A model generated the notes under the pieces. That model searched no databases and was not told where the DNA came from. It saw only the letters and a list, made by a program, of their open reading frames with translations. Source: a virus (taxonomy: Duplodnaviria > Heunggongvirae > Uroviricota > Caudoviricetes). From it: a stretch of DNA of 64,000 nt. The DNA is taken from the IMG/VR virus record IMGVR_UViG_3300023371_000069. One strand, written 5' to 3'. Position numbers and translations under genes: made by a program. Of the stretch, positions 17,761-55,431 are shown in pieces. Positions within the stretch are counted from its first letter, which is position 1. Each line of letters starts with the position of its first letter.

Positions 17761-18013
17761 ATGGAGTTATTATATTTTATCCTTGGTATTATTTTTGTAA
17801 CTTATGTTATTCCTTTGCTGGATGGACTTTCAGCTTGGTTTTTAACTTGGGTTGAAGCAAAAAAAGCCAAACAAAGTGAGATTATAAACCAAACCAATAT
17901 TAAAATGCGTTAGGCAGCCGCCTCTGCGGAAGAGGACCCACCTCGTAGACCAATCGGTTTCCGCATGCCTGACCCAGAAGATTACGACGAAGAGGAGAAT
18001 GAAGATGAAGTTT
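17761..18013 (+). CDS. holin-like single-TM protein with charged C-terminal tail (in-frame TAG at 17911-13)
   Basis: One TM helix, then a KK-rich and an acidic tail. Confidence 0.35.
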
Positions 18014-19249
18014 AAATGCTATGACACTTGTAGTCTTTTAGAACAAGCTGGGCATTTATTCACATCTGACGAGTACGCTTTAGTAATTACTTCAATTACT
18101 TTAGAAGAATTGGAGCATATTAAAACCGCTTCCAACAAAGACGCCGATGTGAAGTTTGCGGCCCGCAAAGTTCTAACTGACCTCGACGAACACTATGGCT
18201 CATTTGAAATTGTTCTTTACAATGACCTATATGGCGAGAAAATGCTTAAAGATGGTATCAGCCTAACTAACGACGCCAAAATCATCGCTTGCGCTCGTCA
18301 TTTTGCAGCCACACATCCAGAAGATGAAGTTATCTTTGTAACTAATGACTTAATCTGCCGTCATATCGCAAGTATGTATTTCACAACTGAAAAGGTTGTT
18401 GAGGAGGAATATAATTATGATGGTTATAAAGAAGTATTCTTGGATGAAGATGGAATGACTGAATTTTATTCCAATCCAGAAGCCAATCTATATGACCTAC
18501 ATATTAATGAATACTTGTTGGTATATAATACTGATGGCGAATGCGTGGACCGACTATGCTGGACAGGTAATGGATATAGACATTTGAGTTATAACAGTTT
18601 TAATTCTCGCTGGTTCGGAGACGTTAAACCCATGAAGGGAGACGTTTACCAGTCACTTGCGGCCGATAGCTTGATGAATAACAAGATTACCTTAGTTAAA
18701 GGACCTGCGGGTTCCGGTAAAACATTCTTGAGTCTGGCCTTCTTGATGCACAAACTGGAGAGAAATAAGATTGATAGAATCATTGTGTTCTGTAATACTG
18801 TTGCCACTAAGAATTCTGCTAAATTAGGATATTACCCTGGCACACGAGATGAAAAGCTTTTAGACTCTCAAATCGGTAATCTATTAATTAGTAAATTTGG
18901 TGGAAGACTTGCTGTTGAACAAATGATTCAGCAAGAAAAATTAGTTTTATTACCTTTGTCTGACATTCGTGGATACGATACATCTGGTATGTGCGCTGGT
19001 ATTTATATTTCAGAAGCACAAAATATGGATGTGGAGTTAATGAAATTGACTTTACAGCGTATTGGCGAAGATAGTATCTGTATTATTGATGGTGACTGTA
19101 AGACATAGGTTGACGATATTCACTTCTCTGGAAGTAATAACGGTATGCGTAGAGCCTCTCAAGTATATCGAGGCGAAGATGTGTATGGCGAGATTACTTT
19201 GAAAAATATTCATCGTTCTCGTATTGCACAAATTGCTGAAAAAATGTAA
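17999..19249 (+). CDS. phoH: PhoH/YlaK-family ATPase (PIN-like N-domain + PhoH NTPase) with in-frame TAG at 19106-19108
   Basis: GPAGSGKTFLSLA Walker A. Read through TAG, the sequence gives IIDGDCKT-Q-VDDI, matching the PhoH GDxTQxD motif. Confidence 0.7.
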
Positions 19250-19262
19250 CTTAATATATGTT

Positions 19263-19294
19263 GCGCCCTGGCGAATTTTTCGCCAGGGTTTTTT
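19263..19294 (+). terminator. rho-independent terminator
   Basis: gccctggcg-aattttt-cgccagggc followed by TTTTTT. Confidence 0.7.
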
Positions 19295-19324
19295 CATATG
19301 AAAATTTGGAAAGGAGAGAAATAA

Positions 19325-53910: not shown

Positions 53911-54162
53911 GATAAATATTTATATATTTTTTTCATAGATAATAATAATTACCAAACTTGTATATATGAAAATGAAATTTTAATTATGGATAAAACTAAT
54001 AATACCAATAATATTTAGCAAATAACAGAAGATATTATATTGCTATGTGAAAAATACTTAATAAATAATATTAAAATATCTGGCAATATTAATATGTGCT
54101 ATATGTTACTTGATATGTTAATGGTCAGTGAATATAATTATAAAGTAGAGGTAATAAAATGA
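53908..54162 (+). CDS. very AT-rich small ORF (one in-frame TAG) inside the repeat-flanked insert; doubtful gene
   Basis: Open frame from the ATG at 53908 to the TGA at 54160-62 if TAG is sense. Composition unlike its neighbours. Confidence 0.15.
54141..54162 (+). repeat. direct repeat (right copy)
   Basis: See the left copy. Confidence 0.4.
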
Positions 54163-54401
54163 GATATTTGTTAAAAGCTGTTGATACTTATAGAGTGCCC
54201 GATGAGGCCGCAGTTGAAGCTTTACATGAAGAGCTTTTAAATGACCCTTGTTTTGATTTAGTTGGCTTTAGCTATAAAGTAAAGCAGATTAAGGCTAAGG
54301 GTCAAGTGGTTGAAGAATATATGGTAGTTCAAGCTACTAAGCAGTTTACTGCAGAAAAAGACCCCGAAGATATGTTTGTTGTGTCTTATGAAAGGGGTTA
54401 A
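54159..54401 (+). CDS. hypothetical protein
   Basis: ORF only. Confidence 0.35.
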   Translation: MRYLLKAVDTYRVPDEAAVEALHEELLNDPCFDLVGFSYKVKQIKAKGQVVEEYMVVQATKQFTAEKDPEDMFVVSYERG

Positions 54402-54406
54402 TAAAA

Positions 54407-54946
54407 ATGGCTATTTTTGAAAAAGTTTCTAAATATATAGATGTGGACATCGCTATGCCGGTCAGAAAGACTGCACAGTCCGCAGGATATGATATGGTTG
54501 CCGCAGAGGATTATATAATTCCTTCTGTATGGCAAATGGTTGCAGAAGCTAAAGAATTATGGCCTGTAGGCGATGATGAGTTCGTAACTATGGACCTTAT
54601 GTCTAAATTTACAAAAGAGACTGGTTTCAAGCCAACTCTTGTTTCTACTGGAATGAAATGCAAACTTGACCCGACTACTTGGTTACAGTTGAGTGTTCGT
54701 AGCTCTTCTCCTCTAAAATATTGGTTAATGATGGGTAATGGTATCGGCGTTATTGATGCTGACTATTATAACAATCCCGATAATGAAGGAGAAATTTTCT
54801 TCCAGATTTATAATCTATCTCCATTTAATATTCAGATTAAAAAGGGAGAGGCCATTGGTCAGGCTATTATTCTTCCCTATGGCGTTACTGAAGATGACGT
54901 CGCAGGTGGAGAGCGCACTGGCGGTTTTGGCTCCACATCTAAGTAA
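54407..54946 (+). CDS. dut: dUTP diphosphatase (trimeric dUTPase)
   Basis: SAGYDM, GVIDADY, GERTGGFGSTS motifs. Confidence 0.8.
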   Translation: MAIFEKVSKYIDVDIAMPVRKTAQSAGYDMVAAEDYIIPSVWQMVAEAKELWPVGDDEFVTMDLMSKFTKETGFKPTLVSTGMKCKLDPTTWLQLSVRSSSPLKYWLMMGNGIGVIDADYYNNPDNEGEIFFQIYNLSPFNIQIKKGEAIGQAIILPYGVTEDDVAGGERTGGFGSTSK

Positions 54947-55431
54947 TGCGTCTTTTAGCATTAGACTAGGCAAGCCGAACAAGCGGCTGGGCCATATTTG
55001 AAGATGGTAAGCTTCTAAAATATGGTAAGTTTACTGCTGACCATTCTGATGTTGGAGATAGACTTCACTTTATTCGGAGTAAAGTAAATCAACTCATTAA
55101 TGAATATGATATTGATGAAGTTGTTTTTGAAGATATTTAGCTTCAAGGCAATGTTGCAAACAATGTTCAAACTTTTAAAGCATTAGCAGAAGTCTTTGGT
55201 GTTTTATATGAATTATTTGTAACATTAAAGATGCCTCGAACCGCAGTTCTTTCAACCGTTTGGAAATCTACTCTTGGTATTAAGGGTAAAGACCGTCCAG
55301 CCCAGAAGAAAGCCGCATAGGCTTGGGTTGAAAAAACTTATGGTGTAAAACCTACTCAAGATGAGTGTGATGCTATTTGTATTGGTGCTCACTATGTAAA
55401 TAATAAAGTCGAAGTATTCGATTGGTCTTAA
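54946..55431 (+). CDS. ruvC: RuvC-like Holliday junction resolvase with three in-frame TAGs
   Basis: MRLLALD-Q-ASRTSGWAIFED (cf. RuvC ILGIDPGSRVTGYGVI), EVVFEDI-Q-L, DECDAICIGAHYV (cf. DAADALAIAITHC). Confidence 0.55.

What the first reader, a model, noticed from the sequence alone, without database searches (positions are those of the whole stretch)
17999..55431. Amber (TAG) codon reassigned to a sense codon (most likely Gln) across the genome
Six conserved enzymes are split by in-frame TAG exactly where alignment demands a residue. PhoH reads GDCKT-TAG-VDDI, matching the GDxTQxD motif. DHFR reads NIVISR-TAG-PRG, matching E. coli NIILSSQPG. The GIY-YIG core reads CYVG-TAG-AANLADRWK-TAG-H. 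Gmk reads TTRPMR-TAG-GEAHGVNYF. The RecJ-like enzyme reads KVLI-TAG-IDSDCDG. RuvC reads LALD-TAG-ASRTSG. Across the window, 12 genes plus the tail-fibre genes show this pattern. Two of these sites are Q in homologs. Almost all genes end in TAA or TGA, and the few TAG-terminated ORFs have plausible in-frame extensions. This fits the Gln-recoding known from some gut phages, but here it co-occurs with a Gram-positive-type endolysin. No suppressor tRNA gene is visible in this window, so it should lie elsewhere in the genome.
Basis: seen in the sequence. Interest (0 to 1): 0.85.

Follow-up and report, generated by a model that had tools for sequence, protein, structure and literature searches.

The report
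Phage reads TAG as glutamine
This stretch of a roughly 200-kb gut or rumen phage genome uses the stop codon TAG as a glutamine codon in about a fifth of its genes, which is a real but already well-described habit of gut phages.

Summary
All six quoted motifs sit at the stated positions, and Pfam domains run straight across the TAGs.

I count 38 credible in-frame TAGs in 17 of 80 genes, between positions 14968 and 63948. Every gene ends in TAA or TGA.

**Evidence for glutamine**
- Codon-by-codon comparison with 29 related phage contigs shows TAG exchanging mainly with CAA or CAG. At the PhoH site this holds in 10 of 10 relatives.
- Glutamine is the maximum-likelihood reading by about 100 log-likelihood (lnL) units over lysine.
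- Sequence downstream of the first TAG is under the same purifying selection as TAG-free genes, so these are not pseudogenes.

**Suppressor tRNA**
- The window holds no tRNA.
- Six close relatives carry a canonical 75-nt tRNA with anticodon CUA, written tRNA(CUA). It sits in a tRNA array that synteny places about 25 kb upstream of the window.
- In three of those relatives it lies on the same contig as TAG-containing genes.
- I could not fetch that region for this genome, so its presence here is inferred.

**Pattern and novelty**
- TAG use is sparse (5.8% of Gln codons) and uneven. The large replication genes have none.
- TAG-to-Gln recoding with suppressor tRNAs is already published for large gut phages of Firmicutes (now Bacillota). 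The Gram-positive link is therefore not new.

Verdict: a new member of a known kind, of modest interest.

The parts
14383..15096 (+). Phosphoesterase-like gene with one in-frame TAG at 14968
   Evidence: PHROG phosphoesterase match, E = 5e-46, on the part before the TAG. Relative L030 keeps the TAG. This is the weakest-supported site in the set.
17289..17717 (+). Gene of unknown function with TAG at 17589
   Evidence: Relative L030 has CAG at this site. Downstream of the TAG, 41 codons compare as 29 identical, 7 synonymous and 5 non-synonymous.
17761..18015 (+). Small membrane-protein-like ORF with TAG at 17911
   Evidence: The TAG is kept in L030. Downstream codon changes are mostly synonymous.
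17999..19249 (+). PIN-PhoH ATPase with TAG at 19106, at the Q of the GDxxQxD motif
   Evidence: The Pfam PhoH domain (residues 217-411) spans the TAG. PDB 3b85 has Q at this position. All ten relatives have CAA (6) or CAG (4) here.
31573..32565 (+). Protein with a transmembrane helix, a coiled coil and a C-terminal GIY-YIG nuclease domain, carrying nine in-frame TAGs (31714, 31720, 31825, 31954, 31990, 32023, 32137, 32344, 32374)
   Evidence: Pfam and PHROG GIY-YIG matches over residues 242-328. At 32137, 32344 and 32374 the relatives have either TAG or CAA. After the first TAG, 282 codons include 62 synonymous and 25 non-synonymous changes.
33748..34245 (+). Dihydrofolate reductase with TAG at 33943
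   Evidence: Pfam DHFR_1 covers residues 1-163, E = 5e-44. The alignment column is variable: A, N, Q, S, N in PDB homologues, and AAT, AAA or TAG in relatives.
36717..37376 (+). Zinc-ribbon-like protein with TAG at 36750
   Evidence: Relatives have TAG, CAG or GCT at this site. Of 207 downstream codons, 52 changes are synonymous and 14 non-synonymous.
40773..42518 (+). RecJ-like DHH exonuclease with TAGs at 40920 and 40995
   Evidence: Pfam DHH, DHHA1 and RecJ_OB matches. At 40995 the relatives have CAG x4, CAA x2 and TAG x2. At 40920 they have AAA or TCC.
43473..43967 (+). Gene of unknown function with TAG at 43641
   Evidence: Relatives have AAT at this site. The frame stays open and the downstream sequence is conserved.
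49708..50277 (+). Guanylate kinase with four TAGs (49765, 49831, 49885, 50140)
   Evidence: Pfam Guanylate_kin covers residues 3-176. L010 and L011 keep three of the TAGs and have CAA at 50140.
53908..54162 (+). Small AT-rich ORF with one TAG (about 54016)
   Evidence: Support comes only from the open frame and from an ENA gene call that reads through the TAG. Weak.
54946..55431 (+). RuvC-like resolvase with three TAGs (54967, 55138, 55318)
   Evidence: Pfam RuvC match. All three sites are CAA or CAG in L010 and L011.
56048..56647 (+). Gene of unknown function with TAGs at 56087 and 56204
   Evidence: Called as one 199-aa gene on the ENA contigs and as a 55-aa fragment on the JGI contig. No relative aligns here.
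58833..59087 (-). Small gene with TAG at 58898
   Evidence: The TAG is kept in L010 and L011. In the 20 downstream codons, 6 changes are synonymous and 1 is non-synonymous.
59098..59580 (-). Gene of unknown function (phrog_21718) with TAGs at 59478 and 59463
   Evidence: Relatives have CAA, TAT or TAG at these sites. PHROG match.
59820..63347 (-). 1175-aa Gly/Ser/Thr/Asn-rich protein, putatively a tail fibre or receptor-binding protein (unverified), with five TAGs (62591, 62159, 61724, 61187, 60632)
   Evidence: One open frame of 3.5 kb. It is called as a single 1175-aa gene on ENA contigs and as six same-frame fragments on the JGI contig. No PHROG hit.
63367..64000 (-). C-terminal part of an 808-aa Laminin_G_3 protein that starts beyond the window, with TAGs at 63948 and 63789
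   Evidence: Gene calls on L006 and the translation.
19325..30878 (+). TAG-free block: a 777-aa multidomain peptidoglycan hydrolase, GyrB, RNase H, GyrA and NAD-dependent ligase
   Evidence: Pfam matches. The four large genes of the block hold 72 Gln codons and no TAG.
45538..49500 (+). TAG-free Pol III alpha, which also serves as the taxonomic anchor
   Evidence: Pfam match. It has 39 Gln codons and no TAG. The best GenBank phage hits are 38% identical: SPbeta-like phages, Enterococcus phages and phAss-1.

Best explanation
The window is part of a roughly 200-kb phage genome from gut or rumen metagenomes, most likely infecting an anaerobic Bacillota host. In this genome TAG is decoded as glutamine (translation table 15).

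**Shown**
- TAG lies in frame inside conserved domains, and the downstream sequence is translated.
- Homologues have Gln at TAG positions.
- No gene in the window ends in TAG.
- TAG use is sparse and uneven.

**Inferred**
- Decoding is done by a phage-encoded amber-suppressor tRNA(CUA). It should lie in the large tRNA array about 25 kb upstream of the window, as it does in close relatives.
- A host enzyme charges this tRNA with Gln. The tRNA carries the bacterial Gln identity features G73, G2:C71, G10, U35 and A37, plus an unpaired 1:72 position. This would suit a GlnRS-type enzyme.

**More speculative**
- Genes containing TAG can only be completed once the suppressor tRNA is abundant and outcompetes RF1. 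TAG would then act as a translational delay switch for a subset of genes. These include the resolvase, nucleases, nucleotide kinases and putative fibre proteins.
- The TAG-free replication genes can be expressed from the start under the host's standard code.
For: **Read-through is real**
- Domains continue across the TAGs.
- ENA gene calls of the identical sequence already read through TAG.
- Downstream of the first TAG the synonymous fraction of changes is 0.69 and amino-acid identity is 0.90. Upstream the values are 0.66 and 0.89. In TAG-free genes they are 0.67 and 0.88.

**The residue is Gln**
- Residues aligned to TAG are 51% Q, 9% K and 7% E. This mirrors the profile of true Q sites (67% Q, 8% K, 7% E).
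- lnL is -145 for Gln, -245 for Lys and -300 for Trp.
- CAA, which is two mutations away from TAG, is a commoner partner than CAG.
- The PhoH motif Q falls on a TAG.

**TAG is not a terminator here**
- The 80 stop codons are 58 TAA and 22 TGA.
- No TAG lies within 20 codons of an ORF end.

**tRNA**
- An identical 75-nt tRNA(CUA) occurs in L117, L118, L121 and L147. L205 and L206 carry a tRNA(CUA) at the same place, and the L206 copy is a sequence variant.
- It follows tRNA-Ser(UGA) in the array, about 7 kb upstream of a DUF2828 gene.
- Contig L206 links the tRNA(CUA), the DUF2828 gene, a homologue of window gene 1337-3853 and a homologue of the first gene of L001.
- On L121, L205 and L206, the called genes next to the tRNA contain 10, 12 and 5 in-frame TAGs and none ends in TAG.
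- It is a canonical tRNA by Rfam, scoring 51.5 bits.
- 15 of 22 distinct CUA tRNAs have a 1:72 mismatch, against 4 of 418 other tRNAs. 16 of the 22 have G73, including all 15 with the mismatch. This matches the Gln identity rules in PMC9976931.

**Uneven use**
- The probability of no TAG in the 63 TAG-free genes under uniform use is about 2e-13.

**Host**
- The window encodes a hydrolase with Amidase_2, SH3_3 and M15 domains, and NrdD/NrdG.
- Pol III alpha is closest to that of Bacillota phages.
- Family contigs are binned mostly with Bacillota MAGs (metagenome-assembled genomes) from ruminants.
Against: - No tRNA(CUA) has been seen in this genome itself. The window, 8.7 kb upstream and 4.8 kb downstream hold no tRNA.
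- The two closest IMG/VR relatives have contigs that end just before the expected array.
- Some family members, such as L040, have the array without a CUA tRNA.
- The D and anticodon arms of the tRNA resemble a phage tRNA-Trp more than a tRNA-Gln. Its charging identity is therefore inferred, not shown.
- Many Bacillota lack GlnRS (my own knowledge), which would leave the charging route open.
- The timing model is not a clean fit. TAG-containing genes are interleaved with TAG-free genes in the same apparent operons. They include DNA-metabolism genes, and the large peptidoglycan hydrolase has no TAG.
- There is no protein-level evidence.
Confidence: 0.9

Rival explanations
1. The interrupted genes are pseudogenes of a decaying or defective phage, and TAG is a true stop.
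For: Under the standard code, 19 of 95 ORFs end in TAG and several enzymes are split. One genuine frameshift exists at 11159.
Against: - Only TAG interrupts the genes. TAA and TGA never do.
- Constraint downstream of the TAGs equals that upstream and in intact genes.
- TAG positions are conserved, or swapped for CAA/CAG, in relatives with only 53-70% identical codons.
- The sequence is identical in many independent assemblies.
Confidence: 0.01
2. TAG is a sense codon for a residue other than Gln: Trp, Lys, Glu, Tyr, Ser or pyrrolysine.
For: - The D and anticodon arms of the suppressor tRNA are nearly identical to a phage tRNA-Trp(CCA), differing at the middle anticodon base.
- Three TAG/TGG alignments were seen. 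One involves the excluded, frameshifted site 11199. The other two come from distant relatives.
- ARAGORN labels the tRNA 'Pyl' because of its anticodon.
- Some distant relatives have CUA tRNAs with a long variable arm.
Against: - lnL is -145 for Gln, -245 for Lys, -255 for Glu, -300 for Trp, -311 for Ser and -339 for Tyr.
- All ten relatives have Gln at the PhoH site.
- The tRNA is a canonical cloverleaf, unlike tRNA-Pyl, and no pyl genes are in the window.
- An amber-suppressor derivative of tRNA-Trp is known to be charged with Gln in E. coli (PMC9976931).
- Even in loci with long-arm CUA tRNAs, the well-populated TAG columns are dominated by Q.
Confidence: 0.05
3. TAG remains a stop that is only partly read through (leaky, programmed read-through), giving short and long isoforms rather than a full reassignment.
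For: - TAG is rare, at 5.8% of Gln codons.
- Four genes carry a single TAG 20-47 codons before the end.
- Host RF1 presumably still competes for TAG.
Against: - Genes with 3-9 TAGs inside catalytic domains (Gmk, RuvC, GIY-YIG) would yield essentially no product at low read-through.
- TAG is never used as the only terminator in 80 genes.
- Relatives swap TAG freely with CAA and CAG.
Confidence: 0.04

Closest known systems
TAG-to-Gln (code 15) recoded gut phages: crAss-like and Lak phages, and the Jade, Sapphire and Agate clades (Borges et al., bioRxiv 10.1101/2021.08.26.457843; Peters et al., PMC9523058)
   Same: - In-frame TAG is read as Gln.
- The phages encode a tRNA(CUA).
- Use is uneven. 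Late genes are recoded in the published clades, use in replication genes is variable there, and the large replication genes are TAG-free here.
- They come from gut or rumen habitats.
- The Jade, Sapphire and Agate clades have genomes of about 150-210 kb, and the paper predicts Firmicutes or Bacteroidetes hosts for the recoded clades.
[quoted passage not shown]
   Different: - Clade membership could not be tested. TerL is not in the window and I had no reference sequences.
- TAG is sparser here, in 17 of 80 genes.
- TAG marks DNA-repair and nucleotide-metabolism genes interleaved with TAG-free genes.
- No RF2 or aminoacyl-tRNA synthetase gene was seen in the window.
phAss-1 and the proposed Phassvirus genus (Babkin et al. 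2023, PMC10607447)
   Same: - It is a TAG-to-Gln recoded human-gut phage with tRNA-Sup(CTA) genes.
- It has no dedicated synthetase.
- Its predicted host is in the Clostridia.
- Its Pol III alpha is among the best GenBank phage matches to the window's.
   Different: - Pol III identity is only 38%, and there is no nucleotide-level similarity.
- phAss-1 is 136 kb, against about 200 kb for this family.
- phAss-1 has 41 recoded ORFs, including TerL, the portal protein and the tape-measure protein.
Rumen, pig-gut and human-gut jumbo phages using code 15 (PMC13037316)
   Same: They are jumbo phages from the same habitats, with TAG recoding, CTA suppressor tRNAs and many other tRNAs.
   Different: That survey calls recoding only when coding density rises by 10%. 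In this window the rise is 4-8 percentage points, so a genome like this could fall below that threshold.
E. coli amber suppressors that insert Gln: supE (tRNA-Gln with anticodon CUA) and the tRNA-Trp-derived amber suppressor (PMC9976931)
   Same: - The anticodon is CUA and the discriminator is G73.
- The first acceptor pair (1:72) is weak or open, G10 is present, and U35 is the key contact.
- A Trp-like body carrying CUA is charged with Gln.
   Different: - The phage tRNA has a fixed pyrimidine-pyrimidine mismatch at 1:72.
- It is part of a phage tRNA array.
- Its charging enzyme in a Bacillota host is unknown.

Membership tests
Code-15 (TAG to Gln) recoded phages | In-frame TAG inside conserved protein domains, with the frame staying open | tested here: met
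   Six Pfam domains span TAGs, and there are 38 credible sites.
Code-15 (TAG to Gln) recoded phages | TAG positions align with Gln in homologues | tested here: met
   Gln is the maximum-likelihood reading by about 100 lnL units, and the PhoH site is Gln in 10 of 10 relatives.
Code-15 (TAG to Gln) recoded phages | Sequence after the TAG is under purifying selection, meaning it is translated | tested here: met
   The synonymous fraction is 0.69 downstream of the first TAG, against 0.66 upstream and 0.67 in TAG-free genes.
Code-15 (TAG to Gln) recoded phages | TAG is not used as a terminator, and genes end in TAA or TGA | tested here: met
   The stops are 58 TAA and 22 TGA, and no TAG lies within 20 codons of an ORF end.
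Code-15 (TAG to Gln) recoded phages | The genome encodes a suppressor tRNA with anticodon CUA (common but not universal in the family) | tested here: inconclusive
   None is in the window or its fetched flanks. It is present at a syntenic place in six close relatives, and in three of them on the same contig as TAG-containing genes. The region of this genome could not be fetched.
Code-15 (TAG to Gln) recoded phages | Recoded codons are concentrated in late (structural and lysis) genes, with early genes compatible with the standard code | tested here: inconclusive
   Uneven use is clear (P about 2e-13), and the big replication genes are TAG-free. However, TAG genes include Gmk, RuvC, RecJ, PhoH and DHFR. 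The 777-aa hydrolase has none. Expression timing is unknown.
Code-15 (TAG to Gln) recoded phages | Peptides with Gln at TAG positions | not testable with these tools
   This needs metaproteomics, as in PMC9523058.
Pyrrolysine decoding of UAG | An atypical tRNA-Pyl, pylS and pylBCD genes, and TAG at positions that are not Gln in homologues | tested here: not met
   The relatives' CUA tRNA is a canonical cloverleaf. No pyl-family domains appear among the window proteins scanned. TAG aligns with Gln.
Pseudogenised or defective phage | Relaxed constraint after the stops, and a mixture of stop types and frameshifts | tested here: not met
   One search shows equal constraint. Only TAG interrupts genes, and there is a single frameshift at 11159.
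Phassvirus (phAss-1 group) | Nucleotide-level similarity of about 80% or more, with shared synteny | tested here: not met
   No megablast hit in 50,697 phage records. Pol III alpha is 38% identical.
Jade, Sapphire or Agate clades of Borges et al. | Placement in the TerL phylogeny | not testable with these tools
   TerL is outside the window, and no reference sequences were available. Genome size (about 190-213 kb) and habitat are compatible.

The most novel reading that the evidence does not exclude
The amber-suppressor tRNAs of this phage family may not be simple anticodon mutants of tRNA-Gln. They have Trp-like D and anticodon arms and carry a conserved, deliberately unpaired 1:72 position plus G73. 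That acceptor end could let a host glutamine-charging enzyme accept a tRNA that has lost the G36 identity base.

The phage's own YqeY/GatB-like protein (5593-6111) could assist. The code change would then rest on acceptor-stem mimicry. That would also explain how the same 75-nt tRNA can move between unrelated phages (L204).
Probability: 0.2. Interest if true: 0.5.

Novelty: new member of a known kind. Interest (0 to 1): 0.3.

Why it matters
**Annotation.** Under the standard code, 17 genes of this window are split or truncated. They include PhoH, DHFR, Gmk, RecJ, RuvC and the putative fibre proteins. The JGI gene calls of the identical sequence show this fragmentation.

**Detection.** TAG use here is light. 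Surveys that require a 10% gain in coding density may miss genomes like this, so the frequency of recoding in large gut phages may be underestimated.

**Biology.** The finding adds one more lineage to a known phenomenon. It belongs to a very large family: more than 7,900 DUF2828 homologues, with contigs of 190-213 kb. The suppressor tRNA with a 1:72 mismatch is a small, testable lead on how such tRNAs are charged with glutamine.

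Tried and rejected
- **Stop-to-stop ORF totals under four codes.** Not discriminating.
- **Megablast of 24 kb against GenBank phages.** No match.
- **Reaching this genome's own tRNA array.**
  - The exact upstream protein is not a cluster representative; the best hit is 98% identical.
  - Look-ups of P0002, P0008, P0127, P0016 and P0005 gave relatives only.
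  - An exact search for the tRNA in IMG/VR found only one unrelated contig.
- **A crude per-locus 'recoding index' set against presence of tRNA(CUA).** Medians were 2.9 and 1.7 TAG per 1000 codons. It is too noisy because spurious ORFs are included, so I did not use it.
- **Origin of the tRNA by pairwise identity.** Trp scored 0.75 and Gln 0.68, which is not decisive.
- **TAG read as Ser in relatives with long-variable-arm CUA tRNAs.** Well-populated TAG columns there are still dominated by Q, so this is not supported. That analysis includes non-coding frames and is rough.
- **DUF2828 genes as a test bed for TAG columns.** They contain no internal TAG.
- **PHROG annotation of the putative fibre genes.** No hits, so the 'tail-fibre' label stays unverified.

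Full report
**What the window is**

The window holds about 80 genes. Those from 1 to 56.6 kb are on the + strand, and those from 56.7 kb onward are on the - strand.

Pfam annotation gives the following:
- a major-vault-protein-like gene;
- an NAD+ salvage module;
- an SPFH-domain protein;
- a PIN-PhoH ATPase;
- a 777-aa hydrolase with M15, lysozyme, Amidase_2 and SH3 domains;
- GyrB, RNase H, GyrA and an NAD-dependent ligase;
- ThyA, DHFR and DnaB;
- a RecJ-like exonuclease, an SF1 helicase and Pol III alpha;
- Gmk, NrdD/NrdG, dUTPase and RuvC.

The same sequence is 99.96-100% identical in the nine contigs fetched from independent ENA and JGI assemblies. Several of these contigs are 104-158 kb long, and the look-ups also report carrying contigs above 200 kb. 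Related contigs are 190-213 kb. This is a large, nearly jumbo phage.

There is no nucleotide-level match among 50,697 GenBank phage records. Pol III alpha is 38% identical to that of SPbeta-like Bacillus phages, Enterococcus phages and the TAG-recoded gut phage phAss-1. Family members are binned mostly with Bacillota MAGs (metagenome-assembled genomes) from yak, sheep and buffalo gut. Together with the hydrolase architecture and the anaerobic NrdD/NrdG pair, this points to an anaerobic Bacillota host. That host assignment is an inference.

**Checking the observation**

With TAG read through, single Pfam domains cover both sides of the TAGs:
- PhoH, E = 3e-27;
- DHFR, E = 5e-44;
- guanylate kinase, across four TAGs;
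- DHH, RuvC and GIY-YIG.

I removed two false cases. The TAG at 4711 lies before the true start. The TAG at 11199 lies behind a 1-nt deletion at 11159 that frameshifts this copy of an AAA_28 gene. That leaves 38 in-frame TAGs in 17 of 80 genes, from 14968 to 63948.

All 80 genes end in TAA (58) or TGA (22). No TAG lies within 20 codons of an ORF end. So no gene looks like 'a TAG stop followed by a short accidental extension'.

The ENA gene calls on identical contigs already read through TAG, giving products of 1175 aa, 189 aa (Gmk) and 161 aa (RuvC). The JGI calls are fragmented.

**Are the TAGs translated, and as what?**

Three scans of IMG/VR gave 29 related loci, with 31-97% identical codons.

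At window TAG sites, the non-TAG codons found in relatives are CAA (10) and CAG (6), out of 26 distinct site/codon combinations. The PhoH site is CAA or CAG in all ten relatives.

In the other direction, where a relative has TAG, the window has CAA (12) or CAG (7) in 19 of 43 cases. The rest are spread over K, E, N and other residues.

I built an empirical substitution table from the same alignments. It gives lnL = -145 for Gln, -245 for Lys, -255 for Glu and -300 for Trp. The profile of TAG-aligned residues (Q 51%, K 9%, E 7%) mirrors that of genuine Gln sites.

The solved PhoH structure 3b85 has Q at the TAG position of the GDxxQxD motif.

Constraint does not change at the TAGs:

| Region | Synonymous fraction of changes | Amino-acid identity |
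|---|---|---|
| Downstream of a gene's first TAG | 0.69 | 0.90 |
| Upstream of the first TAG | 0.66 | 0.89 |
| TAG-free genes | 0.67 | 0.88 |

This rules out pseudogenes and true termination.

**The suppressor tRNA**

ARAGORN and Rfam find no tRNA in the window. None is in the 8.7 kb upstream or the 4.8 kb downstream that I could fetch for this phage.

A gene 8.7 kb upstream of the window led to 78 related IMG/VR loci. Most have a large tRNA array 5-10 kb further upstream. The array ends about 1.5-3 kb before a highly conserved DUF2828 gene.

- **Sequence.** Six close relatives have a DUF2828 gene 89.7-97% identical in nucleotides to that of L039. L039 is the IMG/VR relative nearest the window upstream of it. 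Four of them (L117, L118, L121, L147) carry the identical 75-nt tRNA(CUA). L205 and L206 carry a tRNA(CUA) at the same place, and the L206 copy is a sequence variant.
- **Position.** In all six it follows tRNA-Ser(UGA) in the array.
- **Synteny.** One contig (L206) carries all of these together: the tRNA, the DUF2828 gene, a homologue of window gene 1337-3853, and a homologue of the gene at the start of L001. This places the expected array about 25 kb upstream of the window.
- **Co-occurrence with recoding.** On L121, L205 and L206 the called genes next to the tRNA contain 10, 12 and 5 in-frame TAGs, and none ends in TAG.

I could not obtain that region for this genome. Look-ups are restricted, and five look-ups returned only relatives. 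Its presence here is therefore inferred, with about 0.85 confidence.

**What kind of tRNA it is**

It is a canonical cloverleaf, scoring 51.5 bits against the Rfam tRNA model. It is not tRNA-Pyl-like.

Its D and anticodon arms are almost identical to a phage tRNA-Trp(CCA), apart from the middle anticodon base. Its 5' acceptor strand matches a phage tRNA-Gln.

Of 22 distinct CUA tRNAs in the family, 15 have a pyrimidine-pyrimidine mismatch at 1:72, against 4 of 418 other tRNAs. Sixteen of the 22 have G73, including all 15 with the mismatch.

The bacterial Gln identity set is G73, a weak U1-A72 pair, G2-C71, G3-C70, G10, U35, G36, A37 and U38. Amber suppressors derived from tRNA-Trp are charged with Gln, as are tRNA-Ser amber suppressors altered at the 1-72 and 3-70 pairs (PMC9976931). 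The tRNA features therefore agree independently with Gln. The actual charging enzyme in the unknown host is not established.

**Pattern of use**

TAG supplies 5.8% of Gln codons overall. Within the 17 genes that use it, the share is 23%. Examples are GIY-YIG 9 of 19, Gmk 4 of 9 and RuvC 3 of 8.

The 63 TAG-free genes contain 485 Gln codons. The probability of seeing no TAG among them under uniform use is about 2e-13.

These genes have no TAG: GyrA, GyrB, ligase, DnaB, Pol III alpha, NrdD, ThyA, the hydrolase, and the vault-like and SPFH genes.

The putative fibre genes on the - strand are about 2.7-fold richer in TAG than the + strand genes (4.2 against 1.6 per 1000 codons).

This broadly fits the published model, in which early genes remain compatible with the standard code and recoded genes wait for the suppressor (bioRxiv 10.1101/2021.08.26.457843). 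That paper also notes variable recoding of replication genes, and dispersed recoded modules in the large Jade, Sapphire and Agate clades. The fit is not clean here. TAG genes are interleaved with TAG-free genes, and several are DNA-metabolism enzymes. I hold the timing function at about 0.4.

**Comparison with what is known**

- TAG-to-Gln recoding with phage tRNA(CUA) is established for crAss-like and Lak phages.
- It is also established for six further gut clades, which the authors predict to infect Firmicutes or Bacteroidetes (bioRxiv 10.1101/2021.08.26.457843).
- It has been validated by metaproteomics (PMC9523058).
- It has been described for phAss-1, with a predicted Clostridia host (PMC10607447).
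- It has been surveyed in rumen, pig and human jumbo phages (PMC13037316).

This phage is not a member of the phAss-1 group (38% Pol III identity). Its placement among the named clades could not be tested.

**Verdict**

- It is a new member of a known kind, and interest is modest.
- Its main value is practical: correct annotation, and a warning that lightly recoded genomes can escape coding-density filters.
- The suppressor tRNA with a 1:72 mismatch and G73 is the one lead worth a follow-up experiment.

Noticed in passing
Loci L046, L047, L117, L118, L121, L147, L161, L163, L164, L177, L198 and others (tRNA(CUA) genes): 15 of 22 distinct amber-suppressor tRNAs in this phage family have an unpaired pyrimidine-pyrimidine 1:72 position, against 4 of 418 other tRNAs. 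16 of the 22 have G73, including all 15 with the mismatch. The mismatch is kept while the rest of the acceptor stem covaries (Rfam alignment).
   Followed up: partly
L127, L141, L148, L169, L173, L217: More distant relatives have CUA tRNAs 88-98 nt long with a long variable arm. In L169 and L173 they sit directly after tRNA-Ser(UGA). I tested whether TAG means Ser there. The well-populated TAG columns are still mostly Q, so this is not supported, but the analysis was rough.
   Followed up: partly
window 5593-6111 (+): A YqeY/GatB-like protein lies inside the NAD module (Pfam PF09424, 27.0 bits, exactly at the cut-off). To my knowledge this domain binds tRNA-Gln in other systems, so it could bear on charging of the suppressor.
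   Followed up: no
window 11159: A 1-nt deletion in an A-run (GATAAAG to GATAAG) frameshifts the AAA_28 gene at 10947-11473, compared with the otherwise identical contig L002. It is either a strain variant or an assembly error.
   Followed up: yes
window 1337-3853, 3946-4536, 4696-5574, 7556-9103, 15599-17107, 34686-35624, 35648-36619: Seven genes use only CAG, never CAA, for Gln and have high GC3 (0.42-0.57). TAG-containing genes prefer CAA (93 to 37). There seem to be two codon-usage classes within one genome. GC content also falls from 0.46 to 0.36 along the window.
   Followed up: no
window 1337-3853 (+); L039 5974-8499; L202 5944-8460; L206 12157-14646: An 838-aa protein carries major-vault-protein shoulder and repeat domains. 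Related copies lie upstream of the L001-gene homologue in three relatives, and L202 lacks a copy at the window position.
   Followed up: no
window 3946-12438 (+): A full NAD+ salvage and repair module is present: nicotinamidase-like isochorismatase, a phosphoribosyltransferase, SIR2, NAMPT, NAD synthase, NADAR and an NMNAT-like cytidylyltransferase.
   Followed up: no
L206 2840-2927: A partial match to OLE RNA (RF01071, 51.6 bits against a gathering score of 50, model positions 437-594) lies inside the tRNA array of a relative. It may be a structured RNA or a chance hit.
   Followed up: no
L204 1672-1746 (IMGVR_UViG_3300022753_000048): The identical 75-nt tRNA(CUA) sits in a 28-tRNA array of a contig that shares no other nucleotide similarity with the family. 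This suggests either transfer of the suppressor tRNA between phages or very strong conservation.
   Followed up: partly
L117-L121, L205, L206, between tRNA-Cys and the DUF2828 gene; L121 12102-16000: At one hot spot, different contigs carry different cassettes: type I methylase with S subunit, EcoRI methylase with GmrSD/HNH, or Bsp6I restriction-modification. A reverse transcriptase with Mtd_N, the marks of a diversity-generating retroelement, lies next to DUF2828 in L121. Assemblies of the nearest relatives break here.
   Followed up: no
L001 3821-9258 (4.8 kb upstream of the window to window position 594): A Thg1-like tRNA-His guanylyltransferase, a phage sigma-70-type factor, RNase T and an RNA-ligase-like gene lie just upstream of the window; the last of these runs into its first 594 bases. 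This looks like a tRNA repair and late-transcription toolkit.
   Followed up: no
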